Shown here piece after piece: positions 528-63,107 of a stretch of 64,000 bases of DNA. A model generated the notes under the pieces. The model was not told where the DNA came from and made no database searches. It was given only the letters and a program-made list of their open reading frames with translations. Made by a program: the position numbers and the translations under genes. The stretch's first letter is position 1, and every line of letters begins with the position of its first letter. This DNA comes from Tubiluchus corallicola (Eukaryota; Animalia; Priapulida), in NCBI GenBank assembly GCA_030141605.1, contig JAQGDQ010000040.1:434001-498000 (forward strand), given 5' to 3'.

Positions 528-902
528 AAATTACTTGACAAACCATTACTTGTAATGCCCTTTTAAATCATATTTTTGTCGTAAATTTAAATGCATAAAC
601 AGAAAGTATAGCGACTATATTACGTTTTCATTAAAGGCAATTTGACAGAATGATATGGAGTAGCAAATGGCAGCAGCCAGCATGCTGCCTATTGTTTAAT
701 TTCAATATTTATTGCTAACGTGCTTCAGAAAAGTTCTTGACTTCCCATAACCTGAGTACATTTCTTGTTGTTGCAGGTTTACCTGCCATTATTAATCAAT
801 TACTATATGAAGTCTCTTTTTTATTTTCTAGATGCAGCAGTAGCCTATTGCAGTTACTTGTTATTATCATCAGAAAAAATATCTCATTCAAGATTGATTA
901 AA

Positions 903-12600: not shown

Positions 12601-13377
12601 AGCTGCTGAAGTCGGCATTTTCATAACTTGGTGGCTCATTATCGTCATCATCAAACATTTTTTCCTCTTTACCATCAAGGCTGGCAGAAGCATTTGTCTC
12701 CCCTTCTATTCCATTGGCTTCAAAACTTTCCATTGGTGAAGGTTCTGCATCTTCGTCGGCACCATCATCTGGACTGGCTGGTCCAGCACTATCATCAAGT
12801 TCAAGTGCCACATTGGAAGAACTCTTCCCTTCACAACTTTGCATTTCTAAACCACCTGATTCAACATTTTCATCACCAAACATTTCATAACCCATAGATT
12901 CCATTTCTTCTGTTGCTGGTAGCTCAGGACTTGCTTCACCAGATCTAGCTGGACTCAAGTCAAAGATGTCACCAGGTAGGTTGGAATCGGACTCTAAATT
13001 TGCATCACTTTCCCTTCCCACCTCTTCTGGACTTTCAGGCATTTCATCATCCATTTCTTCTTCATCAGGTTTCCTGGAAAGATCAAAGTCATCAGCATTC
13101 CCTCCTGGAGTTCCAGGAGCTGAATTACTTTCACTTACACTAAGGTGCTCTTCTTCATCAGACTGCTGTGGTGATCCTGCTGGTGATGCTTGAATATTCT
13201 CATTGATATCCACAGAATTATGGGCATCACGAGAGGGAGCTAAAAAGTTGCCTCCTGGTGTGGCTGGATTAAACAGGCCATGTTCTTCTAAATCACTTTC
13301 ATACTCATTTTCATCTTCCCCTTCACTTTCTACTTGAAACTCGTCAACGGAGTTAACAGCTTTGTCTTCATGAGCAT
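3626..13377 (-). CDS. IWS1: IWS1/Spn1 transcription elongation factor (TFIIS N-terminal domain). Exons 13377-11817, 11714-11435, 11178-11121, 10247-10088, 9942-9795, 9133-9051, 8740-8611, 7418-7301, 6308-6200, 5967-5908, 5405-5379 (microexon), 5213-5090, 3757-3626; start exon lies further upstream and was not located
   Basis: Conserved motifs [61 protein letters not shown] and [10 protein letters not shown]. All introns are GT-AG with compatible phases; long acidic N-terminus. Confidence 0.93.
5590..5875 (-). mobile_element. Degenerate tRNA-derived SINE-like sequence in an IWS1 intron
   Basis: Minus strand begins tggctgagtggatagg (A-box-like), followed by gcttcgatactc (B-box-like); GC content is higher than the flanks. 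The 3' boundary is approximate. Confidence 0.35.
12119..12262 (-). repeat. Coding minisatellite, 6 x 24 nt encoding EDEGPASP
   Basis: Unit ctgggccctcatcttc(a/g)gg(g/a)cttg repeated within the large IWS1 exon. Confidence 0.95.
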
Positions 13378-14021: not shown

Positions 14022-15367
14022 CTAATCTCAGATAATTCAAAGCTATTGAGTATATAGTGATTGTTAAACTTGTTTGCGAAATTCCCTGAAAGAAACGCAA
14101 ATACTATGGCTCACATACAAAAACTGAAAATCCAAACTTTTTGAGGTGGATTTCAGAGAAAGCCAGTAGTACGACCAGATCCAAAATTTAACAGCCAAGC
14201 TTGTTACTTTCAAATTTTGCAAATGCAAGTTATCCATATAATAATTAAACCTATTATTCATCATTTCCATTGGTTACTGATTAAGTAAGCTGATAAATGA
14301 AAAATGTTGCTTCATAGAGAGGCGCCACACTGTGTTTTTTGAAAAATGTTTGTGCAAGAACAATGTTGTTGCCTTGGTCAGCATCAACGTTAACAGAACA
14401 GTGCACTTATAAGAAATTAGTTTTGTTTTTTTTGCTGAGGTAGCTATATAATTGCATGCTGCAGAAGCAGGTATCAAAATTTATCTAGTGAAAAAACCAT
14501 CGTCAGGCAGTTAAGTGACACTCACATTTACAGATAGTTCAATTAACAATGACATACATAGAGTTGGCTTACAATTTAATTGTGGAAAACCAGTATGTGT
14601 GTCAGTGTACAAAAATAGTTTTTTTCGATCAAGGCAGGCAATTATAATACATTGAGAGTTAATTGTAGTTACCAGACATGTCTTGATGTTCAATTGCTCC
14701 AAAACACGGTTGACTCCTGCCAAAAGAATCCAGGGACTGCAAAAAGTTTATAAAAACAAAGCTATGAATGGCTATCCACAAAATGATACTCGTGCAAGCT
14801 TAGCGGCTAACTCACGTAAAAGATAAACTCAACATAAACAAAGCTATACAGATTACCACAATTTCAGTTCTACTGTTGACAACTCTTAATTCGATAAACC
14901 TGCAAAATCAAATTATTACAACAATATGTTTTACAATTGCAGGAAACACCATTGATTAAGTTCAAGTGTAATTGAGCTATAAAACCGCATTTTCAAAATA
15001 ATCAAAACCTGTTGTAAAATTACACTTACTCAATAAATAAGAGTTAACTGGTTTGATTTACAAAATGATAAAACTAAAATGAGATTAAAACGAAGGCGTG
15101 ATGGTGAATTCACTTTATCCCAGGATTTATCAAACACAGTTCTAACTTTACATAGTGTTAACAACTCATTCATTTGTATGATTTATTTTGTTCCTTCTTT
15201 CTTGGTGACTAGCTGGGTTTGTGGGCGAAGCTACTAACACTCAAAATTACTTGAACTACTTAATACTCATAAAGGATACTTATTGATGTAATAGCCACAG
15301 TTTTAGCTGAATATCCAGATTTAAATCGATGTGTTTCTAGTGATGTGGGAGATCTCAAGTTTATATA

Positions 15368-18706: not shown

Positions 18707-19869
18707 CATTATATATATGAAATAATTACTGAAAAAATAAAAAATTTTCAAGGCTTGATGATCAATGATGAATAATCAGACTTATTCATCACTAAATTTT
18801 ATTGGTGAGAATTAGAGCATAAAATTACAGCACAAAAAATAAAGCAAATTACTTATTTAAATGCAAAATAGCTAAGGATGATAAATTTTGTAGGCATGGT
18901 TGAACAAAATTATTTTTATGGTAATAATTGGTTTTCTCTTTACTACATAATGTGTCCATCATGAAAATGACAGAGAAGTAGAAGATTAATTATTAAAAAT
19001 TTTAGTACTATAAAACGGGGTAAATAGGGATAGTTTTTACATTCAAATTATTGTAACTTTTTTACTAGCTTTTGTCTTTTGAAGGTATTTTTCTTATAAT
19101 AAAAAATAAAAAATTGTACATTGTTTTTTGTTTAAAAACCCCTGTCCCTGTTAACCCCGAATTTTGAGGTGAATAGTGACAGTCTTGTTTTTGGTCCTTG
19201 TACCCATCTTGCATTACATAAGGTGAAAAGGACACAACTTAGGTTTCAAAAAAACGTGTTTTAGAATCTGCTATTTTGACATCTAGAATAAATTTACGAA
19301 GCTTGGTTAGATAGCACTGCTCCTAGCTAGATAACACAATTTGTTACGTATCATCAAACATCAAAATTCGCCTTTCCCTCCAAAATGGCCACATATCTTA
19401 AGTTAAATTAGAACTAAACCCAACATTTTAGCACAGGCTGTAGCTCCCACGATTTGCTCATTGTATTGTGTTGTTTTTGGTGTTGTTTTCTTGTATTATG
19501 CTCCAACAATGAATCATTTATACATGCATGGCTTGCTGTCCCAATTAACCCCATTGTTTATATCAAACTAAAAGAGAATTACTCAAAACAGAAAAAAATT
19601 GTTAGATGTTACTGAAGGTAAGTCACTCAACTGTAAACTACAAAATAACCACATCTGGCCCACTGATTAGGCCTGTACATTAAGAGTTTGGACTACCATT
19701 ATTTTTGGTGTTATTAGTATACTGTCAGTTTACAGTTGCCATGGCAACCAGGAGAAACTTCGCAATGACATAGTGTTCTTGGTAGATAGTACATGCATCA
19801 GGTTTATTTATAAAATTATAATGTACTATATTGCTTATTCTTTCATTGGAGTAGGTGGTGCAATAACTT

Positions 19870-22800
19870 AGCAGAATCTTACTCTTCATGGTGACTGGAG
19901 TAAGAAAACTACATGGGTCAAACAGTGACATGACATGGCTCATGACCATCCATCTCGTCAAAATTAGTGGCACTTCTCTGGCTAACACCTCTTGACATAT
20001 GTCTGTACCTGTTTGTACTTTCCTCTTCCTTTTTGAGAAATTGATCTTCACATGAAATTTGAATTTGTCCACCACTGAGTCCCACACGACTCCCAACACC
20101 CGACCTTCCTCTTCTGAATTTGCAATCACTTTAACTGAAGAGTCTTCTTCTGTAGGTGCTTCAATAGAAAAATGCCAACACTTCACTTTAAAATTCCCTC
20201 TTTTCAAAATATCTTCCACCTCCTTTGCTAGTTTGAGGCCCCTTTCCCTTCCTTCACAAGACTCTAAAATATCATCAACATATGTTGATTCTTTTATGAC
20301 CTTTGCTGCCTGTGGATGTGAGCTTTTGAACATTTCAGCAGACATATACTCTCCCGCCGGACGATATTTACAACAGTAATGACGTATACTCTGGTGCCCT
20401 AGTTTCATCACAATCCCACCAAAGAAATCTGTGTTGATCATTGACATCCATTTCAACTGAGTTGCACATCTTCCAAATGTTCCCTTGAATGGCAAAAGAG
20501 TGCTCTCGAAACCTGCAAAACACGCCAAGCAAATTGTTAAGGTAATTGTCTGGCCCTTTAGCCAAACATGAATTAAGTGAAATGTTACCCTTGGCTTTTC
20601 TACTGCTGTTGAAAACAATTCGCACGGGTGTTGACTGGCTGTTAGGGTAAAGCACAGCTAAGTGGCATAAATAGGAAACTGGCCCTTTCCAGTTATCAAT
20701 CTCGGCTTGACTAAGCTTGCATACAGCACCTCGATAGACCATGTCTTGTATCTGACCTGAATACACAGCACCCCATTCTGCATTTTTTTGCCAAACTTGA
20801 CTCACACGACTGTAAAGCTGACAGAGCTTGTTGATAGTTATCAGGCAACTGCGATCTGTCCACTATCCAAGATACTTCGAAATCCAGACTTGGCGATCTA
20901 GATCGTAGCTGAGTCCTTCACGGATCAAGCATAGCTCACTCTCTTCCCTGAAACTGTAGGTATGCCTGGGAGTGGGACACTTACCACACCGACATGTCCC
21001 ACATTTTGGCACAATCTGACTTCCGAGTGCTTCAGCTGCAAAGAAGGTGTCACAGTTATCTTCTGCACCAACTAAAGATGATGACATAGAATCTCTCGGC
21101 TGCTTTCTCACTAGGCACTCCTGTGGATTGAGCTGTGGATAACTTAAAACTCCAGTACTGAAATTAGAGACATTTACATGAAAAATAGCTTTTTTCCAGC
21201 GTCCATCTGTCTTTCTGGTAGTGTCAAATAGCTCTGGATGAGATCCACCCAAACGCCTACCAAACATATTTTCCATAATGAAAAGATGAGCACCATCTGA
21301 TCGGATTGGTTGAGGTTGCCATCCAGCTTTAAAATTGTCAAGTAAAAGCTCTACTGTATCAGTCGGATGCTTAAGGTCCCCAACTGAAATCCCTGGAACG
21401 ATACGCTTCACCACTGTGCTTCCAGTTATTGAATCCAAGCCGTATGCCTAAAAGGTGTGACGTTGGTTATCTTTATCCATTATCGTGACGTTATACACCC
21501 GAGTTTCCAAAGTTTCCACATGTCCCTGCAATGTCTTAACATCAATTATCTCACTTTCTCCAGGGAACTTATTCTGCTTTGCACAATCATGTGTTATGAA
21601 CATCCCAGAACTTCCTGAATCAAAGAAAGCATTAATTTTACTGCCACGTCTTAGTCCTTGAATCTAGATTTTGTGAAGTAATGTTGTTGAATCAGTACCA
21701 GCACTATACATCACTGTAGCTGATGTAACCTTCTTAGCATACAAACAATTTGAAATAGTTGTTGAATCAACCATTTCAACATTTGATTTTGAAACACTAC
21801 CAGGCTCAGATTGCATCTCTTTGAAGCAGAACATTGTATGGCGACCTCCATTCTGACACTTCTTGCACTTTGCTGTGCCCATGCATACTATTGCCACATG
21901 ACTCCCAAAGCAGATATAACAAGCACCATGCCTCTTTATTACATCTCGTTTTTGATTGACAGTAAAATTTTGGAACTTTTCACAATCCCTGTTTAAATGG
22001 TCAATTACTTCGCATGTGCTGTACTTGAAGTAAGGTCTTCTGTCACCCATCTTCCCGTTTGCTTTACATTCACGAGCAAAATGTTCTTGTGTGCCACATT
22101 TGAAACAGCTTTTTGATTTAGTACCGCCACCAGTCCCAAATGCTTCTGGTTGAATATCCTGATAATGGCTACTGACACTGCCAAATTGCTTTCGTGCAAC
22201 TGCAGTTAAATACTCTATGCGCTCCTTTTCCTTTAACAAAAATGGTAAAAGAAGCTCGAAATGTTCCAGTCTCTCTTCATCACTCTTGCTGATGATGTGC
22301 CTTGCCCATTCATTACGAATATCTTCCGGTAACCTGCATTCAATTTCAGAAAGTACCCTGCATTGCTAATTTCCTGCAACATACTTAATGACTTTTCTAT
22401 CCAGTCGACAAACTTTATGAAACTAACATGATGCTTTCTGTGACTTTCTTTCTATCTCCATATTTCCTTTCAAGGCATTTAATCATTTCAGCGTAGTTGT
22501 CATTACAGGCAGCTACTAGATCCGCTGCCTCTCCACTTAATTTCTCATTCAAGATGGCGGCCCAAAATTCACTGGAATAATGTTTCTCGATAATCTTCTT
22601 CCAATTTGTGATGAACGTCGGCCATTCGCTGTATCCACCATGAAAACCGGGAATGGGTATTGCTTCCAATTTTGCTCTACCAGACGCTTGCTCAGGTCCA
22701 GTGTTGCTTGACATGCCAGATACATGATTGCTTTGTGATGATTGAGAACCAATATAGTTCATTGCTTTGTCATTTATCTCTTTAACAATTGCCTCTACGT

Positions 22801-23400
22801 CATTGAATCTTCTATCTTCTTCCGATAGTCAGCAACCAAGGAAGCATATTTGGTGAGTGATAACCTCACTTTGTCCAACAGTGTCTGAATTTCTAACCGA
22901 CAACTCTCCTGGACCTGAATTGATGTGTCTCCACTCTCAATCCTCCTTTCCTGATTTTCAATATGCCCATGCAATAAATGAATCAGTGTATCAAAATCTA
23001 TCTTGTGCCACTTGATGATTTTCTCCTCTTCTTTTGTTGCTTTAGCTTCATCATCGTTCTCTTTCTTGAGTTCTTCAACTCTCCCGATTCTCCGCTTGTA
23101 GTCCTTATCTCATGCAAGAACGTTGTCTGCTCTTGAATAGTCTTGCTCCATGTATTGAGAAGCCTTGTCTTCACCCACATGCGGCAGTTCTTGTTTGCAT
23201 GCATTTATGAATTCAATGTGGCATGCTTTCAAATAGTTAAGTGCGGCCTCCACAGCATGCACCAGGCGATTAAGTTCTTGCACACTGTCTTCCTCTTCAA
23301 TTAAATCTTGAAGCCTTCTCAGTACCCTTCTCAAGGCTGATTTTGCAACAGTTCTCTTTGTCTTTTTCTATTTTTCATCATTAATTCATGATGAAGTGCT
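19870..23400 (-). mobile_element. Decayed BEL/Pao LTR retrotransposon (gag, protease, RT and partial downstream domain; integrase missing)
   Basis: Gag motif KLEAIPIPGFHGGYSEWPTF; CCHC knuckles; protease AFFDSGS (~21610-21630); RT STPVRIVFNSS..SLNSCLAKGP..STYVDDIL; RVLGVVWD. Many frameshifts and stops; LTRs not confidently delimited. Confidence 0.9.
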
Positions 23401-24009: not shown

Positions 24010-25050
24010 TAACAATACGATGGGTAGCAGAAAAGAGGAAAGATGTGTGATTAAAGAAAATGATAGCAGGGTGATCAGTGACAATGAACAACTTAAAGAG
24101 ACGTATATGAAATATTATGAACATCTACTTGCAATAGAGGAAGCAGAATCTGATAGAAGCAGAAGAAAAAGTCAATTTGTTACCAAATAATGGAGATAGG
24201 TAAAAAGAGAAAAATAAGGGAAATAACTATAGAAGAGGTGGATGATGTAACAAAATTAAGATAGTTAAATAGTCGAAAGGTGGCCAGGCGGGTGACCATC
24301 AGGGCTCTACTAATGAAATGATAATATATGATCTACTAATGCAAAGATTTTAAAAAAAAGCATAGTAAGAATGTTGACTCGGTTAAGGAATTTGAAATTC
24401 CTGATCGGTGGAAACAACTGAAAATAAAATCGATAAAGAGAGGAGTTAACACACATGATGTTAATCAACAGAGGAGCGATCTTTTTAACAAATACACTGA
24501 TGAAATTATATGAAAACATGTGGAGCAAAGAAATAGAAGGAAGTTGGACAGAAGAATTTAGAAGTGTAAATTAGAAATATGGTATTAGCTATACAATTTG
24601 GACATATAAAGACTCTTAAAAAAAGTCAACCTGGAAAAAACAACTAAAAGAAAATGTAAAAAAATTCATTAAGGTTACTGCACATCACCAGATACACTCA
24701 AAAACTAAGTTAAAGTTCTTAACTTATAAGCACAATAATATAGCTGAGTCAACACCAGAACAGACAAACAGGATTTTAGAGATAAAATTTAATATGCTGC
24801 CTCTAAAATGTAATTATAAGAGTAAGTTCAAAGAAAATCTATAGTGCCCACTACGTGGTAAAGAAGAAGATACGACAGATCATCTATTCAAATGTATGGT
24901 GATAAGAAATGTGCTACTAGCTGCAGAAGTAAATTTTCAAAATCAGATTGTCAAAAAGCCAGAAGTTCCCCACAAACAGCAAAGCAGCTGGTGGAATATT
25001 TTCAAACAGCAAAGGAAACAAGAAAGAGGTGTCGAGCTGGAAATCTAGCA
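24010..25050 (+). pseudogene. Heavily decayed non-LTR retrotransposon ORF2 fragments
   Basis: Remnants resembling KAGD..G.TNEM (~24280-24320) and a C-terminal CPL(C)GKEEDTTDHLFKC zinc-finger motif (24845-24895). Confidence 0.6.
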
Positions 25051-25138
25051 AAAATAATAATAGTTGTAAATGGTTATAAGCATTACGGTTAACTACGTTA
25101 CTTGTGTTTTGCACGGTGACAAATTTGTGCCTATTTAC

Positions 25139-25249
25139 CCAGATAATTATAGCGGGCATCGAGGAAATAGTGATTCAACGAAACAGCCACATCAATGAAA
25201 AGAAGCACGAAAAATCACTGAAATCACCATGGCAGCTATGCGCCAAAAA
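25139..25249 (-). promoter_or_regulatory. Putative IWS1 core promoter and first exon
   Basis: Minus strand reads TTTTTGGCGC (25249-25240), ATTTCAGTG Inr-like (25224-25216) and donor TCTGG|GTAAAT (25139/25138), mirroring the UBR7 5' region. No other gene lies between here and the IWS1 CDS. Confidence 0.45.
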
Positions 25250-25347
25250 CGTACTAATATCATACAAAACAGATACAGTCTGCACAACCTTAGACATGTG
25301 GGACTGTGGTTTCATTAACATTTGTGTGCGTTTTCAGTTAAATAGCG

Positions 25348-25818
25348 TGTTGGGAGCCGTTTGGACCACTGCGCCAAGTAGACCACTTGATGCGCTAAAA
25401 GTAGTGTCCTACATGGGCAGCCCAAGTAGGACACTAGCGATTTTTGTCGAGAAACTTGCTCTGGCAAAACTTGTTTCCAGTTTATATTACCATTGCTTAT
25501 AAGTATTGTTATGACATAATAAAGCATAAAACAAAATTTCTTTTAGAAATGGATATTCCTTGGCAATTTACAAATGCATTTCTTACAATAATTTCATCAT
25601 TATGATTAACTCCATTAATATATCATAACATTAAACCTAGTATCTAATGCTTTAAAGAGAGAAATTCTGCACACAGTTATTACAGAAATAATTGCAAACA
25701 GAAATAATTGTCAGTACACTTAACGACTGAATTCACGACCTGTCTCTAGTGTCCTACTTGGGCAGCCCAAGTAGACCAATTGGTCTACTTGGCGCAGTGG
25801 TCCAAACGGCTCCCAACA
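25348..25818. mobile_element. Non-autonomous TIR element with TGT...ACA ends and 5-bp TSD (Ginger2/TDD-like by termini); copy A, between IWS1 and GFM1
   Basis: Perfect 38-bp TIR tgttgggagccgtttggaccactgcgccaagtagacca (25348-25385 / 25781-25818); TSD TAGCG at 25343-25347 and 25819-25823; internal 35-bp palindrome at 25402-25436. Confidence 0.9.
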
Positions 25819-25943
25819 TAGCGGTTTTTTCTAACTGCTCAGTTTTGTGCAAGAAGGTTTACGGCTCGGAACAGAAGTGAGAATCAGATATTACTGCTAA
25901 TGAAACAACTTTTCACTGCGCTGAGTGTTTTGTTTTCTGCTTT

Positions 25944-28900
25944 ATGATGACACTGGCGCGTCACTATCAAGTTATTGGCAAGTTGACAAGCGGAGGAAGA
26001 CTTTTTTTGAAAAATGTAATTTTTACTTTCTAATATTTTAATGACGCTCACAAAGCATCACTAAAATTATTTTTGCTTATTATTGATTGGATATAGTTCC
26101 AGCTTACTTTGCTATCAATTGTGAGTTAGTTACCTATAGCCTAGGCTATACTACTAGGCTAGCTATACTTACTATAAATTATAATTATAGTATGCTAGAG
26201 TAAGATTAAGTCTTAGAGGAAATGGGTTCAGTTGTTCAAGATATGGATATTAAAATTATTTACAGTAATATAGGTTAGAGAAAAGATGTGTTTTAAGGAT
26301 ATTTACTTCTGTTGGAAAACTTTATTTTCCTCTTATTCCCCTTATTGTTCATATCCCTGGCATTAATTTCATAAATTGGAAAACTTGGCACTCCCCTATT
26401 CATTGTGCCATTAGTAGCATTTAGATTAGATTAGATTTATTATATGTGTTCATGTACATACAGAACAATACAGAGTAATATACAAAATTTATAAATCATC
26501 AGCACATGAAGACACATCAAGTCAACACTATGAGAAAACTTGTGCAGTGTTAACTTAATGAACCTTCATAGTCACCTAGCCTTCGGCACGTGGTGGACAG
26601 CTCCTCCCCTGGACATGTTCAGTAATTGCTCACTGTGTAATGGTATTAATATAATATTCACTAGTCTATCTAAAAAAGCAGCTGATGTTGCGTAACAGTT
26701 ACTGTCAACAATGCCACACTAGTACATAACCATTATTGTAATAATTAAGTGTTTATTTTCGTACATTTTGGTGTGAGGGTGTGGTAAAAGTGAAGAATAT
26801 TTTTGTGTATGATTCATGCATCATTTGAATTGTAAGCATTAGTAGCTAATAATCAAAAAATCAATAATTGAAAGGCCTTAGTCATGAATCGTGAAACATT
26901 TTAACCTAATTTCTGAATTCTATTTATTATACTTACAAATAGGTATGAGCAATCCCCGAATCACTAAATGTATTTTTACAGGGTGTTATTTCTTGCTTGG
27001 TACAACGGCACTCCTGGATTTCTTCTGATTCAAAGGTATTCTTAAATTACTCATACAACATTGTATATTTAAAAAATTTAATGTACACAGATACGTACAA
27101 TATACTGCTAAAGTACATTGACAGTGAACTGAATTATACTGAGATATTATACACAATAATAAATAGCATTTGTTTTACATATAATAGCTGTGCTGTCTTG
27201 TTTTGCACAGTCTAGTTTTAAAGTAGAAGACATTCGCAATATTGGAATTTCCGCACATATTGATTCCGGAAAAACTACCCTGACTGAACGGATATTATTT
27301 TACACAGGCAGGATTGCTGAAATGCACGAGGTATGATTAATACACCATTTTTCTCATGATCTTTTTTATCCTTATAAATCGCTTTACATTTTCACTTTTT
27401 TACATTTAGCCATGCGCTTAAAAGAGACTACTGCAATTACTGATTCAAAAGATGTGCTTTGCCGCTGTCGGTTCAATAAAAATTATGGCTGTGGAATCTT
27501 TATATAACGCTCGGACACAGAAGAAAGTAAGCCCTCCTTAAAAATGCCATAGAGCAAAGAAAATCAAAGAAAGTACAAGACACATTTTAGCACTTACTAA
27601 CCTATTTTGCTGAGAAAGTCCAAGAAGTAAGAACTTTATGCTTGATATTGTCATTAAGCCCATAAAAATGGAAAAAAGTAGATATCAGTATGGTTGTATT
27701 GTCTTTTTGGACATGTTAATTCATGTACTCTTTTATTTTATTATTTTCACATTTCCAAATTTTTTTCTCTCATGTGTCTCAGTTTTTATTTTAAAAAAGT
27801 GCGTACTTTTTGCATATGTCCACCCTGTTTAAATAGCACATCACTAAAATATTGTTGATTTGTATTTTGGAAGGGGTACCAAAGTTATTAGTTTCTTTAG
27901 CGCATTCTTTGATTTTTTTCCAACAGTACGAACTGCTTGATTTGTAAATCTTCCAACTATTATCATTTGAAATAAATTATTGCCGGTTTTTGTGATTGTA
28001 ATTTTATTTCCATCCAATCTTAAAGTATCAATTTTTTTAAATGTTTCATGTATAAAGGCCAGTTGTTTTTTTGGTAACAGGTTAGAGGTAAAGACGAAGT
28101 TGGGGCTAAAATGGATTCAATGGAGCTAGAAAGGCAGAGAGGTATTACAATCCAGTCAGCAGCAACATATACAACTTGGAAAGGAACTAACATAAACATC
28201 ATTGACACACCAGGTATAACTTGAATAATATGTTGAATAATATGTTGAATAATATTATGTAAAGCTCTGGAAGATTCTTCACCCTTTCACTACATAATTG
28301 CTTTTTAGCAGGGCCACATTGACTTTTGCACATTTGACAATATCTTCTTGTTGTGTGTTACTAAAACAGAATCTTGTAAATTAACAAATAGTCACTTGTT
28401 ATTAAACACTAACATTGAATATTAGCTTTATTTGTACACATGCACACACATACGGGTACGCACGCACATGCATACCCATACAAATATGCACGAAACCAAT
28501 TTTTGCAGAAGTCTTAATACTAATCCATAATATGCAATAATTTTATGAGAAATACAGAACAAGCGACTAAACATACATTTCGCTAATCATTAGCAAGTGA
28601 TTTTGTGTAAGAACAGTACCTTATAGGACTATATTTTTGAATCCACCCAACTTCAGTTGCTGATTTGCTGGTTAGCTTTAGTTGTTGAGAAGCTACCCCA
28701 ACCCCATGGCTGTTAAACTTTTCTACAATGTTTCTGAATTTCCATAGCAGCAAAATAAATAGACCCGGGTGACTGCGCTAAGTGCTGAGCTCAGGCAGTA
28801 GTCTACTGTCTTCCGTCCCTTACACGAAAAAACACTGCCGCCTTCCATAGTGAAAGGGCTAAGCAGACAGTATAACAATTGTGTACTGGAAATCTTTGTA

Positions 28901-34900: not shown

Positions 34901-37900
34901 TGAGCCGTGTAGACAGAGTTTTGACGTGCCTGCCACACGTTACGACATGCTGAAAAACTAAATATCGACTGTCTAGCTAGATCGAGAAATTCTCTTCTCC
35001 ACGACCTGTAGGAATCACCTGTGTTTATGCATTTTTAAAATAACCAATGAGAGGCAAGTATGCGTTAAACATAACTAGGATGCCTGTACCAATTTCATAA
35101 TTGTGGACGTATGCAAAACTAAACTGCTTCATCTCTTAAAGAAGTATTTTAAGTTCAAATAATCTGAAGACTATAATGGGCCACATATAGAAATTAATCT
35201 AATTGTTAAGAATAAAAATTATTAGGTGAAGCAGTATTTATATGGCTTGTGTAGGCATTCAAAATAAAAGATCAGGCTTGGACAGTAGTACGTCCGATAG
35301 GGCACAAAAATAGGGCGCTATCGCAATAACAATAAAAACAAATTTGCATTGCTACGATAATTGATACATACCTTAGCTATGACAGTGCATTAGTGTCATT
35401 GGCGAGTACTCTAATTGTCATTGTAATCTTATTTTTTCATAAAATTCTGTAAGTGGAATATATTCGTGTAGGATGTGACTGAACTCTTGGCTGGGGATAT
35501 TGGTGCACTGTTTGGGGTAGACTGTGCTAGTGGTGATACCTTTGTAAATCACTCTGGTCTAAACCTCTCTATGGTAAGTACAAAAAAGATAAAGTACTTT
35601 AATTACTCTTGTTAGTAAATATTTGGCATTTTCATACCTTGCTGATTTTATTTTTGTGGTTAAAAGGTTTGCCATATTCTTGTTTCACTAATTTAAACTT
35701 ATGGTCACATTTCATTATCTATAATAATTACCAAAATGTTTTTGTTAGATAATATATGATTAATGGACACAGAATAGAGCTAGTGATGGTGTTACAAATG
35801 GGGAAAATTTTCAGTGACAGAAATTTTCCTTGAGATTTTTGCACACGTTTGGAAAAGTAAAAATTTAAATGCGGTCCTGCAGTTTGTCATTGGAACAAAC
35901 AATTGCAGCTAATTTTAAGTAAAGACTTTCAAATTTTGTGTGTCACTGGACTAACACAAGATTGAATTCTGAGTCTAGCCTCACATTGTTAATGGAATGG
36001 TTTCTGCTAAATAAAAGTATCTACTTTATGTGCAACGTGTTTCTGTAGCAATAGTTTTTTTGATGTAAGCTGTTCTTTAAAAAAATGTAAAAAATAAAAA
36101 AAAAACATTATATAACACCTTAGAATATTTTGAGCTGTAGTTCAAAATTGACTGTTGTTGGTTTTGCTTTAAATAAAATAATAGGTGGACAAAATTTATT
36201 ATTTGGCAAAACATTAAAAAATCATATGGCTGATGTAAGAGGCTTTGTATGATGTAAGATGTATCTTTGAAAAAAATCTTAAAAGCATTACTTCTTTCTT
36301 AAATGCATCAACTGCTGACAATGAACATATTTGTCTAACAATTTACCGCATGGACATATGCTAACATGACGGCATGGTATTGCTTGATGTTAAGTTATTT
36401 ACATTGTCTAAACATTGTTGTTCATGTGGCTTCGGCTTTGTGGCTTCAGACATGTGACTTGTAGGCAACGAGAAAAAAATTTATATTGACATTACCGTAA
36501 GCTTGATGTGTTTTTCATTGTTTAGGCCCACTCCTATAATTAGTGATTTAGTGCAACTTTTCAGATATCATTTTCAGGAATCTATACATGTTCCCGAACC
36601 TGTCATCTCCATGTCGATAAAGCCAGCTCTCAACAAAGACATGGATCACTTCTCTAAAGCAATAAATAGATTCACAAGAGAAGATCCAACGTTTCGTGTT
36701 CATTATGATACTGACAATAAGGAGACAATCGCTTCGGGTATGGGTGAGCTACACCTGGAGATTTACTCACAGGTAGGTTGATTAAGGCAGGTAGGTAGGT
36801 TTTTAAAAAAGGATCATATTTTTCTCACACCCTTACCTAGGTATCAGTTTATTCGTGATGACTCTACAACCAATGCAGGTGGTGTGGGATTGTATATCAG
36901 AAACTCAATAATTTTTTCGGAAATGCCTAAGTACAAAATACACAACTCAGACTGTAAAAATGGGTCCACAAACCGTATGCAACTGGAGAATATGTGGATC
37001 GAAATAGAAACTCCACCCAACATCAAAAACATTTTATGTGGAGTCATCTATAGACACCCAAATACTAACATTGAAGAATTTCATGAAAAACTAGAAAGCA
37101 AATTATCTTTAATTAACAGAACTAACAAATTTTGCTATATATGCGGTGACATAAACATTAATTTACTACATAGTGACAGCAAAACCTCAGTGACAAATTA
37201 TACAAACATGTTATTCTCTAATAATTTTGTGCCAATTTTAACTAAACCAACAAGAATAACTCATCACACTAATACACTCATTGATCATATTTACACAAAT
37301 GACCCCACCAACCACGTAACACCTGGAATTTTGCTTTATCAAGTAGCAGATCATCTTCCTATATTTGCAATTATAAAGCATACTAAACTGAAAATGAAAT
37401 CCAACAAAATCACCGCCAGAAATTTTAAAAATTCAACTGAACAAATTTTTTTAAATAACCTGCAGCTAGAATTAGCCAAAATAAATTTTAATGACTTGGA
37501 AACTAATGAGGGATTTAGCAAATTTAATGAAATACTCTTCAATGTGTTCAATAATCATTTTCCTTTGCAAACTTTGTCTAGTAAAGACACTATTACATTT
37601 CAAAATCCATGGATACCTAAGGGAATTTTAAACAGTATTAAAACCAGATCACGTCTTTACAAATCACACAAACTCTCAAATAATTTATACAAACAAATCT
37701 ACTACAAATCCTACTCTAATAAATTTAATCATGTCAAAGAATCATCAAAAAAGCAATATTACACTGAAACACTGCAAAAACATAAGAATAACATGAAAAA
37801 AACTTGGAAAACAATAAACAGTATTATAAAAACTGATTCAAAAACACGACAAACACCAAGTAAGTTAACAATAAACAATGTAGACTATACAGATACATAT

Positions 37901-48700: not shown

Positions 48701-49347
48701 TGATTTTCCTTCAAAAATTGTAATATACATGTACTGTACTGCAGTGGTCATAATGCAGATAAATTCAAACAGACTGATTATGTTGAAACTACCTTGTCAA
48801 TGATGTAATTTCACAATATTCTTCATAGATTGGTTACAAAACAAGCTAAGTACTGATGTAATCCCATTAGAATGTGTTACTAAATAAAAGGTAAATAACT
48901 TTTTTGTTTTTCAAAATGCAACAATTTTGTTACAGTCACATGATGCATGCACAATGCACCAGCTGATTTTGGTTCACTCTAAGGCAGTCACCATTTACAT
49001 TCTTGAATACTATATAATACTATACAACTTTGAGATGGTTGTACTTTTTATCAATTAAAATGTATACAAATTAGAAAATTTTTAATTAATACCCATGTAT
49101 GAAAATATGTGTATAGTTCAGCTAAGAAACTGTACAACAAAACTATACACATGCAAAAGTAAAAAAATGTGTTATTTTACATTACGCGAACTTCACATGA
49201 CACTTTGATGTGCTTCTTATAAGAAGTTCTTACACTGTCTTAGGTTTTTCTGAAAGACATACTAGTTCATGAGATTATCACATGTGAGAATATAATATTC
49301 AGGTTATCTTCTTTGACACAATAATTACATGTTAGATAAGTTATGTG

Positions 49348-49905
49348 TCACCGAATACAACTATACTGGGCACATTCGACAGTTGTAAAGTTAGGAAATT
49401 TTGCTAATGATGAATCGCCCACTGGTGAATGTATCTTTATTTGTCGCATATGCGTATCTCTGCCATTTTGATGATTTGATAATACAGCTATTTGCACCAT
49501 AAATGTACGTATCGGTTTCTCGGTCGCATCTGTTAGTGGAATAATCACCCAACCGCTTGGTTCATTTAGTTCAACTATTTCCACTTCTTGCAGATCGTTA
49601 AAATGATTTCCTGTCCTCACCGATATCCGACTCGGTGTGTAGCTTTCATCAGATTTATAGTCAGCATATATGCACACGTCTTGAATAGTTGTTTTGCGTC
49701 GAAATTGTATATTTACAAGATGAGGTTGTGGCCCATCTGACTGCCAATATGTGTCCAAGTTGTCATCTCGTAACTGATCAACTCCAAAACCTGGTTTGCA
49801 AGAGGAAAGTGACCAAACAGCCAAAGATCCAACTTCCCGTATTTTTCCTGATTTTTCATCCTTTGTTGGATCACTGAAATCACTAAACCTATTATTTGTA
49901 GCCAT
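49348..49905 (-). CDS. ANAPC10: Anaphase-promoting complex subunit 10 (APC10/DOC1), intronless CDS, 185 aa
   Basis: REVGSLAVWSLSSCKPGFGVDQLRDD..TYWQSDGPQPH..DESYTPS..NHQNGRDTHMRQIK and a C-terminal IR tail; 5'UTR acceptor at 49996. Confidence 0.98.
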   Translation of the reverse strand: MATNNRFSDFSDPTKDEKSGKIREVGSLAVWSLSSCKPGFGVDQLRDDNLDTYWQSDGPQPHLVNIQFRRKTTIQDVCIYADYKSDESYTPSRISVRTGNHFNDLQEVEIVELNEPSGWVIIPLTDATEKPIRTFMVQIAVLSNHQNGRDTHMRQIKIHSPVGDSSLAKFPNFTTVECAQYSCIR

Positions 49906-52443: not shown

Positions 52444-53226
52444 CAGCAACCTTGTGTACAAACGAACTTGCGTGTTTTACATAAACTTGAAGATATATAA
52501 CTGCAATATTCTACATTTACCATCATAATATTTCACGAATCTCTTGATCCCCATAACGTAAATTACGCCTTAGCAACGGGTTGCATAGAGCAACGAAATA
52601 TCCTATGCGAAAAACAATAATCGCAGAATACCTCACTAAAATTGTAGAATATGTAAAATAAACCGGATGAAACTTGTCAATTGAACAACTCAGAAAATCA
52701 CAGTGGGGTTTTCCTACACTTTCATCATGTTGTTAATTTTTTCTCATCACCATTCATTCTAATCATCACTTGCTTATTCACATTCTCTCATTTCAAGTTT
52801 CATTTTTTAAAATTCATATAGCATTACACGAAATTTCACAGAGGGTATTTTTACAAGCATGGCTTCCTTAATTCAACACAAATCATCCAACTAGGTATTT
52901 AAGTAAGTATATTTCGAAGTTTGCTTGTTGGATATTTTGCTTTTTGTTAACTATTGACAGTAATACTGAATTCTGGTATGTCTTACTGTACCAACCAGTT
53001 GTATTTGTGTTGATGCGAAATAAACAATCCTAAATCTTGAGTTTATTTTGAAAACATTCACAGACTCAACTTGTGGATAACATATTATCGCCAAAATTTT
53101 AATCTGCTTCTTCGTTGGTAATACTAAATTCTGTGAAAGAATTTCAATAACGTGCACAAGTAACAACTAACCAGGCAGTTCTAACTCTGACGTTCTAAGA
53201 CTGCTGTTTCTCGTGTCAGCACTCAG

Positions 53227-53947
53227 TGTAGGGCGCCGAGTAACGCACTAGCCGAAGTAGAACACTTTCGGTAAAACCCATGTGATAAATTTGAGGAAAA
53301 GCAGTGTCGTACATGGCAGCCCAAGTAGGGCACTAGCGATTTCTTTCAAGAATCGAGATCTATGACATAATAAAACATAAAACAAAATTTGTTTTAGAAA
53401 AAAAGTAACTTTATAATAATAATAATAATAATAATTTATAGTCCTTGATAAATTTACTTTTTACAACAATATCATCATTATTATTAGCTCCATTAATAAT
53501 TATCATCATAACATTAAACTAAATAGCGAATGCTTAAAGAGAGAAACTACGTAAGACACATAACTCGCTAACCCGTTTACTTAGTAGAAAACAATTATTT
53601 GTCCAAGAAGGAGCGAAAAGGATCACCTGTCTGTGAAGGAAGACAAATTGAAAAATGATATACTTTAAGCAAATGTTAAAAACTCCTAAAAAGTGCGCTT
53701 ATTTCACTTCAAAGAAGATTAATTATACTAGCTCAGAGTAAAATTCTTTTATTTCACCGGATGTATAATAAATTATTGAACATGTATAGGCGTGTTTAAT
53801 TATTATTATTATTACATAAACAAGGACAACGGACGGTGCCAGTACGCTTAACGACTCAATTCGCGGACCTGTCTCTAGTGTCCTACTTGGGCAGCCCATG
53901 TACGCCAATTGTCCTACTTTGGCTAATGGATTACTCGGCGCCCAATG
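53227..53947. mobile_element. TGT-ended TIR element with 5-bp TSD; copy B, between ANAPC10 and NOL6
   Basis: Imperfect ~38-bp TIR tgtagggcgccgagtaacgcactagccgaagtagaaca / tgtcctactttggctaatggattactcggcgcccaatg; TSD CTCAG at 53222-53226 and 53948-53952; interior colinear with 25348-25818. Confidence 0.85.
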
Positions 53948-54183
53948 CTCAGCACCACGGGAAATCCTCCTTGGAACTGAAACTAACAAGAAGGTGAAAA
54001 AGAGTACCCAGATTACCGTACGCAGTCTCACATGCAATGGAAAAAGGAAAAACGGAGAAATGCGCTTATTAAAAGGTAATTATGCTTCAATTTATAATGT
54101 TTAATTTTGCAATTTTTCATGTTCCTCTTCATTTGTGCAAATGAGTTTAATTAGTTTTAATGCAGCTTTCGGTTTTGTACTAA

Positions 54184-59750: not shown

Positions 59751-62700
59751 ATGGAGCCAGCCATGAACACCATGAGTAACCTTCTTAATGAACATGAGTC
59801 GGAAATTGATCATGAAGATGAAGCTACAAGTGAACCACCATCTCTAAAATCCCGAGCTCTTTCAAATGCCAATTTATTTGAATTGCAAATAACAGAATTG
59901 CTATCTGAACTCAGACTCAAACGAGAACAAAAAGATTTAGTAGAGAAATTTGTGGAACGACTGCAAAGTAACCTTCTTAGCTTGCGCAATGGCAAGACAC
60001 ATGAGCTTTGTGATCAGGGATGGTTGACTAAAAGCGGGGTAAAAATTCCTTTACTGCAAGAACCTCCACATGTGAAAGGTATGTTCAAATTTGTGAGACC
60101 AATAAATGTGCATGTATATGGAAGCTTTCTGCTAAATTTATCAATTAAACCTAATATTAACATTGACATTGCTGTGGAAATGCCTGAGGCATGTCTTCAA
60201 GAAAAAGATTTTATGAATCATCGATACCATCGCAAGAGGGCTCTATATCTAGCTTATATCGCATCTAAAATGGCTAGGAAGACAAATGACTGTTATATGT
60301 TTTCTTACCTCCATGGTAATCACATGAAGCCTATTTTAGTTATTAAGCCAACTGGTCCTGTGGGAAAATTTTGCCAACTTCACATCCATGTCACCATTCC
60401 CAGTAATTATTTCAAATCCTCGAGGTTTATTCCTTCTAGGAGCAATATTAGAAGAAACTGGTACAATACTTGTAGAAGCTCCGTCACAATGGAAGTACTA
60501 GTAGATGGAGATGAAGTTCAGACACCTCATTATAACAATGTCTTTCTGATGGATATGGTAATGAAAAATCATCACGAACTGTTATCTCATTGTCTCATCT
60601 TGGAATCAGAACAAGGCAAGGACAAGCATTTAGCACTTCGCAATGCTATCATGTTACTAAAAGTTTGGCTTCGACGACGTGAACTTGACCAAGGGTTGGG
60701 CTGTTTTAGTGGATTTATCATGACTATGTATATCATCTATTTGTTAGAACAAAAACTGATTTCCTTGCCCATGACAGCCTCTCAAATCCTAAGAGTCACA
60801 CTCACTACATTAGCACATTCTGACTGGACAAGTAATGGAATCATTTTGTGTAAGGATACCAATGAGCAGCTGCCAACAATGAAGATGTTTCATAAAGCAT
60901 TTGATGTGGTTTTTGTTGATTCTACTGGTTATGTTAATTTGTGTGCTGACATGCATAAATTAACATTTCATCGGGTGTGTCATGAAGCTAAGCTTTCTAT
61001 AGAACACTTTCAAAATAAGACACTTGACACTTTTGATCTGTTATTCTTGAAACAAGTTTCTTTCTCGCACAAGTTTGATCATTTGTTTTTCTTAAGTGAT
61101 ACAGACCATTTGAGAAGTCTAGCCATAGGGAGTTATTTTGAACGTTTGCTTGATTTCTGTGGTAATTATAAACAAGCCATCTTGCCATTATTAGAAAGCC
61201 TCATTCTTAAAGCACTTGGGAAAAGGTTAAATTTGTTAGATATTCAGCTTATGAAGTCACTTGAATGGAAGATAACTGATGAAGCACCATTAACACATTC
61301 AAAAAGTTCCACATTGTTTGGGTTACTGCTGAACATCGAACATGCCACCAGTCCACTGGTAAAAGGGCCTGATGCTAATACCAGTGAAGCCAAAGAATTT
61401 CAAAGATTTTGGGGAGAGAAATCAGAATTAAGAAGATTCCAGGATGGGTCCATCTGCGAAGCCGTCGTCTGGCCTGGGGCAACAATTGCAGAGAGACGTT
61501 CTCTTTGTGAAGTTATTGTCAAGCACATCTTGCACAGGCATTTTGGCATTAATGAAAATTCTGTTATCTACCAATCTGCAGTTTTGGATCCTTTGTTAAA
61601 GCTACCAGTAAATGCAAAAGATGCAAGTCTTCAGACATGTGGCACAGGAGAGGAAGAAAGCATGGCCATCATACTCAGTTTTGATGATCTTTGTAAAACG
61701 TTAAGAAGTTTACAACAAGAACTACCTCTTTCATTTACTTCCATCCAAGGGATCTCACCTGCTTTCAGATTTACAGAGGTGTTTCCTCCAACTCCTTGCC
61801 CCACTAAAGGAGCTACAGCATTAGAAAAGAACACTGTCCTTGTTCCCAAGTTTAACAAGCCTGCTCCACCATGGGTACAACCCCTATCGGTGATATTACA
61901 TATGGAAGGCAGCGGAAAATGGCCTGATGATGCAGAAGCAGTGAAACAGATAAAGATCGCGTTCTGTCTTAAACTTGCTGAGTTACTGCGGCAGCATTCA
62001 TTTACTGTACTACCCACTGCCAAGCATGTTGATGTTTTCAAAGATGGTTATGTATTTCGCTTGCAAGTAGCATATCACAGAGAAAAGATTCTTTTGCAGC
62101 AAGACCGGTCGCCAGATGGAATGCTAAGATTGCGTCAGACGGGGGAGTCTCTTAAAGTTGCTCAGGAAACAGAATATTTGCCCACACTTACTACAGCATT
62201 GCATGGATTACAACAACAGCATAACACCTACAGTGCCTCATGTCGCTTGTTGAAACGGTGGATGTCTGCACATTTGTTAAGTCATCATGTTACGCACGAA
62301 GCCTTGGATTTAATAACAGCTTACGTGTATCTACATCCAGAGCCTTTTACCGTACCGAATTCAGCAGTGACTGGTTTCTTAAGAGCGCTATCACTTTTGT
62401 CAGAATATGAGTGGCAGTCCCATGCAATGGTAATCAACTTTAACGATGAATTATCCGTAAGTGATTACGAAGCCATACAGAAGAAGTTTACAGTGCATCG
62501 ACAAAAATTGCCCCCTATGTTTATTGTAACACCATACGACATGCAGTCCATATGGACAAAATGGAAGCCATCTCAACGGATTCTTTCATGGCTTGTGACA
62601 TTAGCTCGAGCAGCAGTTCCATTACTAAGTCAGCAACTCCTTAATGCAAGTAGCAATGAAGCATTTAAGCAAGTGTTCCGTGCACCATTAGACGTATACG

Positions 62701-63107
62701 ACGTCATTATATACATTCATCACAGATTTGTACCAAGGCATTACCAAGCTGTGGATATAGAAAATGACACATATATTCCAGCATTAAAACCTTACGTGAA
62801 GCACAAGCATGAGAAAATGCCAGTCACTGGATTCGACCCTGTAGAATGCTACATCAAGGAATTAGAAAGCGCATACAGTGATTATGCTCTGTTTTTCATG
62901 AACGAAAACGGTGGAGATTTTGTAGCAGCCTTATGGAAGCCTAATGCTTTTCATACTGGCACAAATGAGAAAATTCCAAAATCTAGTGCAACACATGGAA
63001 AAAATGTACCAGTGTCTATAGAAGATGTACTGAACGGTTTCCAGTTATTGGGCACTGGGATTGTGAAGAAGTTAGAATGTCGAACACATCACTGGCACAT
63101 TAAGTAG
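59751..63107 (+). CDS. NOL6: Nucleolar protein 6 (Nrap/Utp22), intronless CDS, 1118 aa
   Basis: GSFLL..DIAVEMP..KDFMNHRYHRKRALYLAYIA; FWGEKSELRRFQDGSICEAVVW; EGSGKWPDD; GFDPVECYIKEL. An in-frame TAA lies just upstream of the ATG. Confidence 0.96.
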   Translation: MEPAMNTMSNLLNEHESEIDHEDEATSEPPSLKSRALSNANLFELQITELLSELRLKREQKDLVEKFVERLQSNLLSLRNGKTHELCDQGWLTKSGVKIPLLQEPPHVKGMFKFVRPINVHVYGSFLLNLSIKPNINIDIAVEMPEACLQEKDFMNHRYHRKRALYLAYIASKMARKTNDCYMFSYLHGNHMKPILVIKPTGPVGKFCQLHIHVTIPSNYFKSSRFIPSRSNIRRNWYNTCRSSVTMEVLVDGDEVQTPHYNNVFLMDMVMKNHHELLSHCLILESEQGKDKHLALRNAIMLLKVWLRRRELDQGLGCFSGFIMTMYIIYLLEQKLISLPMTASQILRVTLTTLAHSDWTSNGIILCKDTNEQLPTMKMFHKAFDVVFVDSTGYVNLCADMHKLTFHRVCHEAKLSIEHFQNKTLDTFDLLFLKQVSFSHKFDHLFFLSDTDHLRSLAIGSYFERLLDFCGNYKQAILPLLESLILKALGKRLNLLDIQLMKSLEWKITDEAPLTHSKSSTLFGLLLNIEHATSPLVKGPDANTSEAKEFQRFWGEKSELRRFQDGSICEAVVWPGATIAERRSLCEVIVKHILHRHFGINENSVIYQSAVLDPLLKLPVNAKDASLQTCGTGEEESMAIILSFDDLCKTLRSLQQELPLSFTSIQGISPAFRFTEVFPPTPCPTKGATALEKNTVLVPKFNKPAPPWVQPLSVILHMEGSGKWPDDAEAVKQIKIAFCLKLAELLRQHSFTVLPTAKHVDVFKDGYVFRLQVAYHREKILLQQDRSPDGMLRLRQTGESLKVAQETEYLPTLTTALHGLQQQHNTYSASCRLLKRWMSAHLLSHHVTHEALDLITAYVYLHPEPFTVPNSAVTGFLRALSLLSEYEWQSHAMVINFNDELSVSDYEAIQKKFTVHRQKLPPMFIVTPYDMQSIWTKWKPSQRILSWLVTLARAAVPLLSQQLLNASSNEAFKQVFRAPLDVYDVIIYIHHRFVPRHYQAVDIENDTYIPALKPYVKHKHEKMPVTGFDPVECYIKELESAYSDYALFFMNENGGDFVAALWKPNAFHTGTNEKIPKSSATHGKNVPVSIEDVLNGFQLLGTGIVKKLECRTHHWHIK

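What the first reader, a model, noticed from the sequence alone, without database searches (positions are those of the whole stretch)
25343..25823. The same TIR element sits between both head-to-head gene pairs: a candidate bidirectional-promoter-targeting or promoter-donating transposon
Seen: a 471-bp element with perfect 38-bp TIRs, TGT...ACA ends and a 5-bp TSD (TAGCG). It ends about 125 bp before the GFM1 ATG and ~20 bp before an Inr-like TCAGTT (25839), and starts ~130 bp from the inferred IWS1 initiator. The only other copy I see in 64 kb (53227-53947) occupies the equivalent slot between ANAPC10 and NOL6, in the same orientation, whereas the other MITEs are intronic or lie between 3' ends. 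Known: TGT/ACA ends with 4-5-bp TSDs fit DDE integrase-related Ginger2/TDD transposons, and promoter targeting is known for fission-yeast Tf1 and P elements. Inference: this family either inserts specifically between divergent Pol II start sites as a safe haven, or has become the bidirectional promoter itself; each TIR of copy A carries TTGGCGC, the core of the motif seen at the putative UBR7 and IWS1 promoters. Two copies is a very small sample.
Basis: partly seen in the sequence, partly recalled or inferred. Interest (0 to 1): 0.85.

Follow-up and report, generated by a model that had tools for sequence, protein, structure and literature searches.

The report
Polymorphic mini-transposon in a gene promoter
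A small, many-copy jumping element of an invertebrate recently landed just in front of a mitochondrial housekeeping gene and is absent there in another sample, so it is not the promoter itself; its family likely prefers to land near gene starts, as several known transposons do, but two copies cannot prove that.

Summary
Element A (25348-25818, 471 bp, perfect 38-bp inverted ends, TGT..ACA, 5-bp duplication TAGCG) is as described and lies 125 bp before a homology-supported GFM1 start codon. Copy B (53227-53947, duplication CTCAG) is an older sister subfamily, not the same element: its ends match A's at only 26-28 of 41 bases. A contig from an independent sample joins A's two flanks and skips exactly 476 bp (element plus one duplication), so A is a polymorphic insertion into a promoter that already existed; 'the element became the promoter' is refuted for A. 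B is shared by both samples. The family has many copies (68 contigs of one run leave B's left end into unlike flanks). Targeting is open: if the candidate start sites are right, two hits would be very unlikely by chance (about 4e-5), and a TTTTGGCG motif supports two of them; using only homology-anchored start codons, the chance is about 0.07. Preference for head-to-head promoters cannot be told from ordinary start-site preference (P, Mu, Tf1). Ginger2/TDD is only a resemblance: no transposase was found, and animal Ginger2 makes 4-bp duplications. The scan had not noted this element on other DNA.

The parts
25343..25347 (+). Left target-site duplication of A, TAGCG
   Evidence: Sequence; empty allele keeps one copy (joint)
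25348..25818 (+). Element A, 471-bp non-coding TIR element, TGT..ACA, G+C-rich ends (53-54%) and A+T-rich middle (27% G+C); polymorphic insertion
   Evidence: empty site in run X4 skips 476 bp
25348..25385 (+). Left TIR of A (38 bp, perfect)
25781..25818 (-). Right TIR of A (38 bp, perfect)
25402..25436 (.). Left subterminal palindrome of A (two inverted CCAAGTAG-type units around a central A); likely transposase-binding repeats
   Evidence: BLAST self-match; fold z = -5.3 for 25348-25445; function inferred
25754..25792 (.). Right subterminal array of A (three alternating CCAAGTAG-type units), shared with B
25454..25508 (+). About 55-bp segment of A that B and many other copies lack
   Evidence: Alignment; joints skipping 55-57 bp
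25819..25823 (+). Right target-site duplication of A, TAGCG
25839..25844 (+). Inr-like TCAGTT, candidate GFM1 start region; outside the element and inside the flank kept in the empty allele
   Evidence: Sequence; 25819-25895 is also matched by a diverged contig of run X5 with 12 differences (record 23); start site not measured
25944..26015 (+). GFM1 first coding exon (mitochondrial transit peptide)
   Evidence: Splices in frame into [15 protein letters not shown]; EF-G families in later exons
25240..25249 (-). Native TTTTTGGCGC motif followed by TCAGT (25221-25217); candidate IWS1 promoter, same layout as at the UBR7 5' end (456-480)
   Evidence: 2 hits against 0.11 expected; outside the element; start site not measured
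14673..14679 (-). Likely IWS1 start codon exon end (ATG TCT G), giving MSDAHED.. with the large exon that begins at 13377
   Evidence: Frame test; predicted
53222..53226 (+). Left target-site duplication of B, CTCAG
   Evidence: family end at 53227 marked by loose ends of 68 contigs
53227..53947 (+). Element B, 721-bp older sister subfamily, TGT..ATG, TIRs 32/41 matched; present in both samples
   Evidence: X4 contig 53082-53296 crosses its left junction with 1 difference
53948..53952 (+). Right target-site duplication of B, CTCAG
53089..53096 (-). TTTTGGCG in the ANAPC10 sense direction, 131 bp outside B; candidate ANAPC10 promoter
   Evidence: start site not measured
49348..49905 (-). ANAPC10 coding exon; acceptor at about 49995 implies an untranslated upstream exon
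   Evidence: PF03256 E = 1e-79
54040..54075 (+). Candidate untranslated first exon end of NOL6 (donor AAG|GTAATT at 54076)
   Evidence: Donor scan; predicted only
59751..63107 (+). NOL6 coding region, 5.8 kb from B
   Evidence: Six Nrap families; homologues

Best explanation
A and B are two separate insertions of a many-copy, non-coding TIR transposon family, A young and polymorphic and B older and shared, and the family likely favours the open DNA at gene start sites, where it would sit as a tolerated passenger and not as the promoter. Shown: inverted ends that vary together within each copy, 5-bp duplications, an empty site for A, many unrelated flanks. Inferred: a partner transposase elsewhere in the genome binds the repeated subterminal CCAAGTAG-type units, cuts at the CA-3' ends and joins them to a target with a 5-bp stagger, as integrase-type DDE enzymes do; the nucleosome-poor stretch between the IWS1 and GFM1 core promoters (about 250 bp without the element) is such a target, and the insertion leaves both core promoters intact, only 476 bp further apart.
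For: Empty allele: run X4 record 10 covers 24989-25341 and 25818-26012 in one contig, skipping 476 = 471 + 5. Many copies: 68 contigs of X1 and 30 of X4 leave the stretch at 53227 into unlike flanks (agreement 0.37-0.40), 56 of X1 at 53945; summed contig depth inside the elements is some hundred times that of the flanks (not a copy number). TIR element and not solo LTR: 9 of the outer 41 columns are the same at both ends of A and the same, but different, at both ends of B. No coding capacity: longest stop-free frames 65 aa (A) and 74 aa (B). Start-site bias: A is 125 bp from the GFM1 ATG (chance about 0.024 that at least one of two copies lies that close to one of five start codons); with the candidate 5' ends, one copy in each slot has a chance of about 4e-5. 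3 of 4 TTTTGGCG hits in the window lie in sense direction at candidate 5' ends (UBR7, 99 bp outside A, 131 bp outside B; 1.4 expected). Start-site targeting is documented for P, Mu and Tf1, and most such Mu insertions have little effect on expression (PMC7337890, sections 9 and 13 part 1).
Against: Only two copies could be placed against genes. Anchored on start codons alone the two head-to-head intervals are 10.8 and 9.1 kb of about 52 kb, and one copy in each has a chance of 0.07. The pattern was picked after the fact among many families and windows. The motif used to support the candidate starts was also chosen after the fact, the fourth hit (7327) is intronic, and none lies beside GFM1 or NOL6. 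The candidate ANAPC10 first exon overlaps a repeated piece at about 52997-53039. Majority letters of the other copies' flanks are simply A+T-rich and say nothing on promoters. X1 is probably the source of the window and is no independent support; the empty site rests on one contig of one other sample.
Confidence: 0.6

Rival explanations
1. No targeting: a high-copy MITE inserts more or less at random, one copy fell by chance near the GFM1 start, and B lies in an ordinary repeat-rich intergenic or intronic stretch.
For: Start codons of IWS1, ANAPC10 and NOL6 are 10.7, 3.3 and 5.8 kb away; both intervals hold other repeats, LINE and BEL/Pao remnants; chance 0.07 under start-codon anchoring; with 3000 copies in 300-500 Mb (assumed figures) two copies per 64 kb has a chance of 0.06-0.14.
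Against: A is 125 bp from a well supported ATG; sense-direction TTTTGGCG just outside both left ends and at UBR7; with 300-1000 copies (assumed) two per 64 kb would have a chance of 0.001-0.02.
Confidence: 0.27
2. The family targets head-to-head (bidirectional) promoters specifically, for example by a tether to a factor or chromatin state found between two divergent start sites.
For: Both copies lie between divergent genes, each about 100-130 bp from a candidate core promoter on its left and 20-130 bp from one on its right.
Against: 4 of the 5 gene starts in the window are in head-to-head pairs, so any start-site-seeking element would give the same picture most of the time; three of four start sites are predicted only.
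Confidence: 0.08
3. The elements donate promoter motifs and have been co-opted as promoters, as CERP2 and CELE2 MITEs were in Caenorhabditis.
For: A's TIRs carry outward-facing TTGGCGC; B is shared by both samples; precedent in bioRxiv 10.1101/2022.01.21.477252 (passages).
Against: A is absent in another sample whose flanks keep the native motifs; B lacks the motif and its TIRs are decaying, 32/41; TTGGCGC is not above chance.
Confidence: 0.04
4. The elements are solo LTRs of a Gypsy or BEL retrotransposon (TG..CA ends, 5-bp duplication).
For: Most LTR elements make 5-bp duplications and share TG..CA ends (PMC6839031 passages); an AATAAA is conserved in both copies.
Against: 38-bp perfect inverted ends, 9 co-varying TIR columns, subterminal repeat arrays at both ends, and flanks at both ends of other copies that do not agree with one another.
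Confidence: 0.01

Closest known systems
Ginger2/TDD DNA transposons (Bao, Kapitonov and Jurka 2010, PMC2836005; passages and section 6 read)
   Same: TGTNR ends (TGTTG in A, TGTAG in B); non-autonomous short members exist (Ginger2-1N1_NV, 252 bp); TDD-4 and TDD-5 of Dictyostelium make 5-bp duplications.
   Different: Animal Ginger2 elements make 4-bp duplications, prefer RTATAY and have TIRs of about 50-180 bp; here 5 bp, targets TAGCG and CTCAG, 38-bp TIRs plus palindromic subterminal arrays; no transposase in hand.
Start-site-targeting P element, maize Mutator and fission-yeast Tf1 (Zhang et al. 2020, PMC7337890; abstract, section 9 and the first part of section 13 read)
   Same: Insertion next to Pol II start sites, mostly with little effect on the gene.
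   Different: Those rest on thousands of new insertions; here two copies. Other superfamily by ends and duplication length.
CERP2 and CELE2 promoter-donating MITEs of Caenorhabditis (bioRxiv 10.1101/2022.01.21.477252; passages read)
   Same: MITE with motif-bearing inverted repeats found at promoters.
   Different: Those are old, conserved and needed for promoter activity; A is polymorphic and the motif is not shared with B.
hAT5 group (5-bp duplications; named in PMC12730594, passages read)
   Same: 5-bp duplication in animals; subterminal repeats in both orientations are common in hAT elements (recalled).
   Different: I could not find the hAT5 end sequence in the papers searched; hAT ends are usually YA..TR (recalled), not TGT..ACA.

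Membership tests
Non-autonomous TIR transposon (MITE) | Terminal inverted repeats with a flanking target-site duplication | tested here: met
   38-bp TIR and TAGCG; 32/41 TIR and CTCAG
Non-autonomous TIR transposon (MITE) | Empty site with a single copy of the duplication | tested here: met
   Joint 25341-25818 skipping 476 bp in run X4
Non-autonomous TIR transposon (MITE) | Short, non-coding, many dispersed copies | tested here: met
   471 and 721 bp; longest frames 65 and 74 aa; 68, 56 and 30 contigs with unlike flanks
Ginger2/TDD | TGTNR termini | tested here: met
   TGTTG at both ends of A, TGTAG at B's left end; family right end ..ACA
Ginger2/TDD | 4-bp duplication in animals (5 bp only in Dictyostelium TDD-4/5) | tested here: not met
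   5 bp at both copies and by the empty allele; definition
Ginger2/TDD | RTATAY target preference | tested here: not met
   Targets TAGCG and CTCAG; only 2 sites seen
Ginger2/TDD | Integrase-like transposase with H2C2 zinc finger and DDE core in an autonomous partner sharing the ends | not testable with these tools
   No genome held; end patterns found nothing in metagenome, viral and prokaryote collections
hAT5 | 5-bp duplication with a hAT transposase partner | tested here: inconclusive
   5 bp met; partner and end consensus not available
Start-site-targeting elements (P, Mu, Tf1 type) | Genome-wide enrichment of new insertions at measured Pol II start sites | not testable with these tools
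   Two copies only; chance 4e-5 to 0.07 depending on gene model
Co-opted promoter MITE (CERP2/CELE2 type) | Insertion fixed or conserved and needed for promoter activity | tested here: not met
   A absent in another sample; B shared by two samples only, activity untested
Solo LTR (Gypsy/BEL) | TG..CA ends with only short inverted repeats and no left-right co-variation | tested here: not met
   38-bp perfect TIR, 9 co-varying columns

The most novel reading that the evidence does not exclude
An animal transposon family with integrase-type ends (TGT..ACA) and a 5-bp duplication, a combination described for Dictyostelium TDD elements but not for animal Ginger2 in the paper read, that precision-targets the gap between divergent Pol II start sites of housekeeping genes and has done so in two separate waves (A and B subfamilies). 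I found no paper on such targeting in three searches.
Probability: 0.1. Interest if true: 0.7.

Novelty: new member of a known kind. Interest (0 to 1): 0.3.

Why it matters
As shown, it is an ordinary MITE insertion polymorphism, of use as a natural experiment: filled and empty alleles differ by a 476-bp spacer in the likely shared IWS1/GFM1 promoter. If a genome-wide map confirmed start-site preference, it would add a further, unrelated transposase lineage to the short list of start-site-seeking elements (P, Mu, Tf1) and give a recently active animal system in which to find the tether. Specific targeting of head-to-head promoters would be a new rule, but nothing here separates it from plain start-site preference.

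Tried and rejected
No whole genome is held, so the genome-wide distance test and the hunt for an autonomous partner could not be run. End and subterminal patterns gave 0 hits in metagenome contigs, viral contigs and prokaryote genomes. No RNA holder listed; the one guessed RNA run laid 0 contigs on 24900-26400 and 3 partial ones on a repeat in 49300-54300: no evidence either way on start sites. No empty site of B appeared among the 15 joints shown, with 32 more not shown: no proof that B is fixed. Run X1 has no cover at 25206-25307: a hole, not a finding. A diverged contig of run X5 begins exactly at 25819 and does not enter A, but its remaining letters were not shown joined to the left flank: suggestive only. 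Two searches for a relative's IWS1 N-terminus found nothing, and the NOL6 search returned only distant animals, so neither fixed a first exon. Rfam: 0 matches in the window. A 6-bp duplication reading (ATAGCG) also fits the 476-bp skip but breaks the symmetry of the ends, and majority letters before other copies do not show a fixed A there: rejected. Reading the skip as an AT..AC intron was rejected because run X4 also covers intronic and intergenic DNA and the skip equals element plus one duplication. A 4-bp GCAC reading of B is rejected by the family ends at 53227 and 53947. Recalled promoter motifs (DRE, NRF1, ETS, Motif 1, YY1, TATA) did not cluster at the flanks, apart from E2F-like TTTGGCGC. 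A quick UBR7 tree of 34 rows (33 of the 120 listed hits) left the animal unplaced; the nearest named row by path was Priapulus, without support. Summed contig depth suggests the A type is more amplified in run X1 than in X4, but the tool warns that this is no copy number, so it was not used as a claim. PMC6004678 gave no passage for the terms asked.

Full report
Observation. Element A runs from 25348 to 25818 (471 bp), begins TGTTGGG, ends CCCAACA, and has TAGCG on both sides. Its inverted ends match perfectly for 38 bp. A second copy, B, runs from 53227 to 53947 (721 bp) with CTCAG on both sides; BLAST of both against the window finds no third copy. The two share the subterminal arrays and three internal blocks (80-95% identity), but their outer 41 bp agree at only 28 (left) and 26 (right) positions, B's own ends agree at 32 of 41, and B ends in ATG. 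At 9 of the 41 columns both ends of A share one base and both ends of B share another. So A and B are sister subfamilies of one TIR family, each with its own matched pair of ends; this also argues against a solo LTR. Neither has a reading frame longer than 74 aa. Just inside each end lie repeats of a CCAAGTAG-type unit in alternating orientation, which form strong palindromes (z = -5.3 for A's left end); other copies carry further units (loose ends). That these are transposase-binding sites is inference.

Host and genes. The window is from an invertebrate animal that I could not place: UBR7 has one unnamed relative at 86% and named ones near 50%, and a quick tree leaves it unplaced; an earlier unchecked note on this genome suggests a priapulid. 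UBR7, GFM1, ANAPC10 and NOL6 are confirmed by Pfam; IWS1 is recognised from its C-terminal exons read by eye (recalled likeness, no Pfam hit for the N-terminal exons scanned). GFM1's first exon is well supported: the ATG at 25944 splices in frame through a transit peptide into [15 protein letters not shown], 125 bp from A. The other three 5' ends are predictions. The large IWS1 exon begins at 13377 and needs a phase-1 partner; ATG TCT G at 14679 gives MSDAHED, whereas the ATG at 25230 spliced directly gives a stop after 16 codons. There is some support: TTTTGGCG occurs 4 times in the window (1.4 expected), 3 of them in sense direction at candidate 5' ends, namely UBR7 (457), 99 bp outside A and 131 bp outside B; at UBR7 and beside A it is followed by ATTTCAGTG and later by CTGG|GTAAAT. 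The motif was chosen after the fact, and the candidate ANAPC10 exon overlaps a repeated piece.

Is the element the promoter? Of six runs listed, three are one sample (probably the window's source), one (X4) is another sample and study, and two carry the same species label with next to none of the words. In X4 one 548-letter contig covers 24989-25341 (7 differences) and 25818-26012 (4 differences) and skips 476 letters, which is the element plus one duplication. This is the empty site. It fixes the duplication at 5 bp for symmetric ends, shows that A is polymorphic, and shows the native TTTTTGGCGC, both Inr-like words and the GFM1 exon standing without the element, about 250 bp apart. It rests on one contig of one sample. 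For B, an X4 contig crosses the left junction with one difference (53082-53296), so B is shared and, with its decayed ends, older. B lacks TTGGCGC, and that word occurs 4 times against 1.9-2.5 expected, two of them in A's single inverted repeat. Promoter donation, as shown for CERP2 and CELE2 in Caenorhabditis (bioRxiv 10.1101/2022.01.21.477252, passages), is thus refuted for A and unsupported for B.

How many copies? 68 contigs of X1 and 30 of X4 leave the stretch at B's left end into flanks that do not agree with one another, and 56 of X1 do so at the right end, where the majority continues with CA, giving a family end of ACA. Summed depth inside the elements is roughly 350-460 times the flank depth in X1 and 40-160 times in X4; the tool states that this is no copy number, so I take only 'many, probably hundreds'.

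Is there targeting? Three null calculations, over about 52 kb of non-coding sequence: one copy in each narrow slot, 4e-5; one copy in each interval between supported start codons, 0.07; at least one of two copies within 125 bp of one of five start codons, 0.024. Two copies in 64 kb has a chance of 0.001-0.14 for assumed totals of 300-3000 copies in 300-500 Mb. All are after the fact. Since some transposon families do seek start sites and such families would produce most windows that look like this one, I put some start-site bias at about 0.65. It would be a known kind of behaviour: P and Mu peak within 50 bp of start sites, Tf1 is tethered there, and most Mu insertions in promoters have little effect (PMC7337890, abstract, section 9, first part of section 13). 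A special preference for divergent promoters cannot be read from this window, where 4 of 5 gene starts are head-to-head. Three searches found no paper on a transposon that targets bidirectional promoters as such; the library lacks most subscription journals and I read no supplements.

Family. TGTNR ends fit Ginger1, Ginger2/TDD and LTR integrase elements. Animal Ginger2 elements make 4-bp duplications at RTATAY and have TIRs of about 50-180 bp, and only the Dictyostelium TDD-4 and TDD-5 make 5 bp (PMC2836005, passages and section 6); a later paper lists 4 or 5 bp for Ginger2 (PMC10045372, passages). hAT5 also makes 5-bp duplications (PMC12730594, passages), and PlavakaA has TGT..ACA ends with 2 bp (same call). 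No autonomous partner could be sought, as no genome is held and collection scans were empty. The element works like an integrase-type cut-and-paste MITE (inferred from ends and duplication) but is not shown to be a Ginger2 member.

Verdict. A real, ordinary MITE insertion polymorphism at the GFM1 5' end, with an older relative between ANAPC10 and NOL6. Promoter donation is refuted for A; start-site bias is likely but untested; bidirectional-specific targeting has about a 1 in 10 chance. The scan's earlier notes hold no look-alike of this element; a similar first-reader idea in another genome also ended as an ordinary insertion with an empty site (not checked here). New member of a known kind; interest 0.3.

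Noticed in passing
window 456-531 (+) and 25249-25133 (-): The UBR7 5' region and the flank left of A share one layout: TTTTTGGCGC, then ATTTCAGTG 9-17 bases later, then CTGG|GTAAAT; each 10-mer occurs only at these two places (0.11 and 0.17 expected). It may be this animal's housekeeping core promoter; the donor beside A lies at the edge of a small repeat (about 25028-25145).
   Followed up: partly
window 54183-54779 and 59210-59611: A repeat of about 600 bp bounded by 62-bp direct (not inverted) repeats, 81% alike, with a second partial copy 4.9 kb on, on the other side of a LINE.
   Followed up: no
window 54963-58910 (-): LINE with a PHD-finger ORF1 (338 aa) and a 778-aa endonuclease-RT frame, between B and the NOL6 coding region.
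   Followed up: no
window 19725-23200 (-): Broken BEL/Pao retrotransposon (DUF1759, zinc knuckle, peptidase A17 pieces) between the IWS1 and GFM1 coding regions; a further LINE remnant lies in a GFM1 intron at 36782-39343.
   Followed up: no
window 11816-13377 (-): IWS1 has a very long acidic exon (about 520 codons) with 24-bp GPASPEDE repeats, many Ser-Pro sites; no relative found in two protein searches.
   Followed up: partly
window 52081-52403: Multi-copy repeat (one X4 contig at depth 119 against 4-7 in unique DNA) that holds a short frame MASECVPPAKKKK.. on the minus strand; possibly the 5' end of another transposon.
   Followed up: no
window 1373-2404, 49348-49905, 59751-63107: UBR7 (after its first coding exon), ANAPC10 and the 1118-codon NOL6 coding regions have no introns, while IWS1 and GFM1 are intron-rich.
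   Followed up: no
window 25454-25508: The A-type segment shows far higher relative contig depth in run X1 than in X4 (about 460 against about 44 times the flank), a possible recent burst in one lineage; depth is no copy number.
   Followed up: partly
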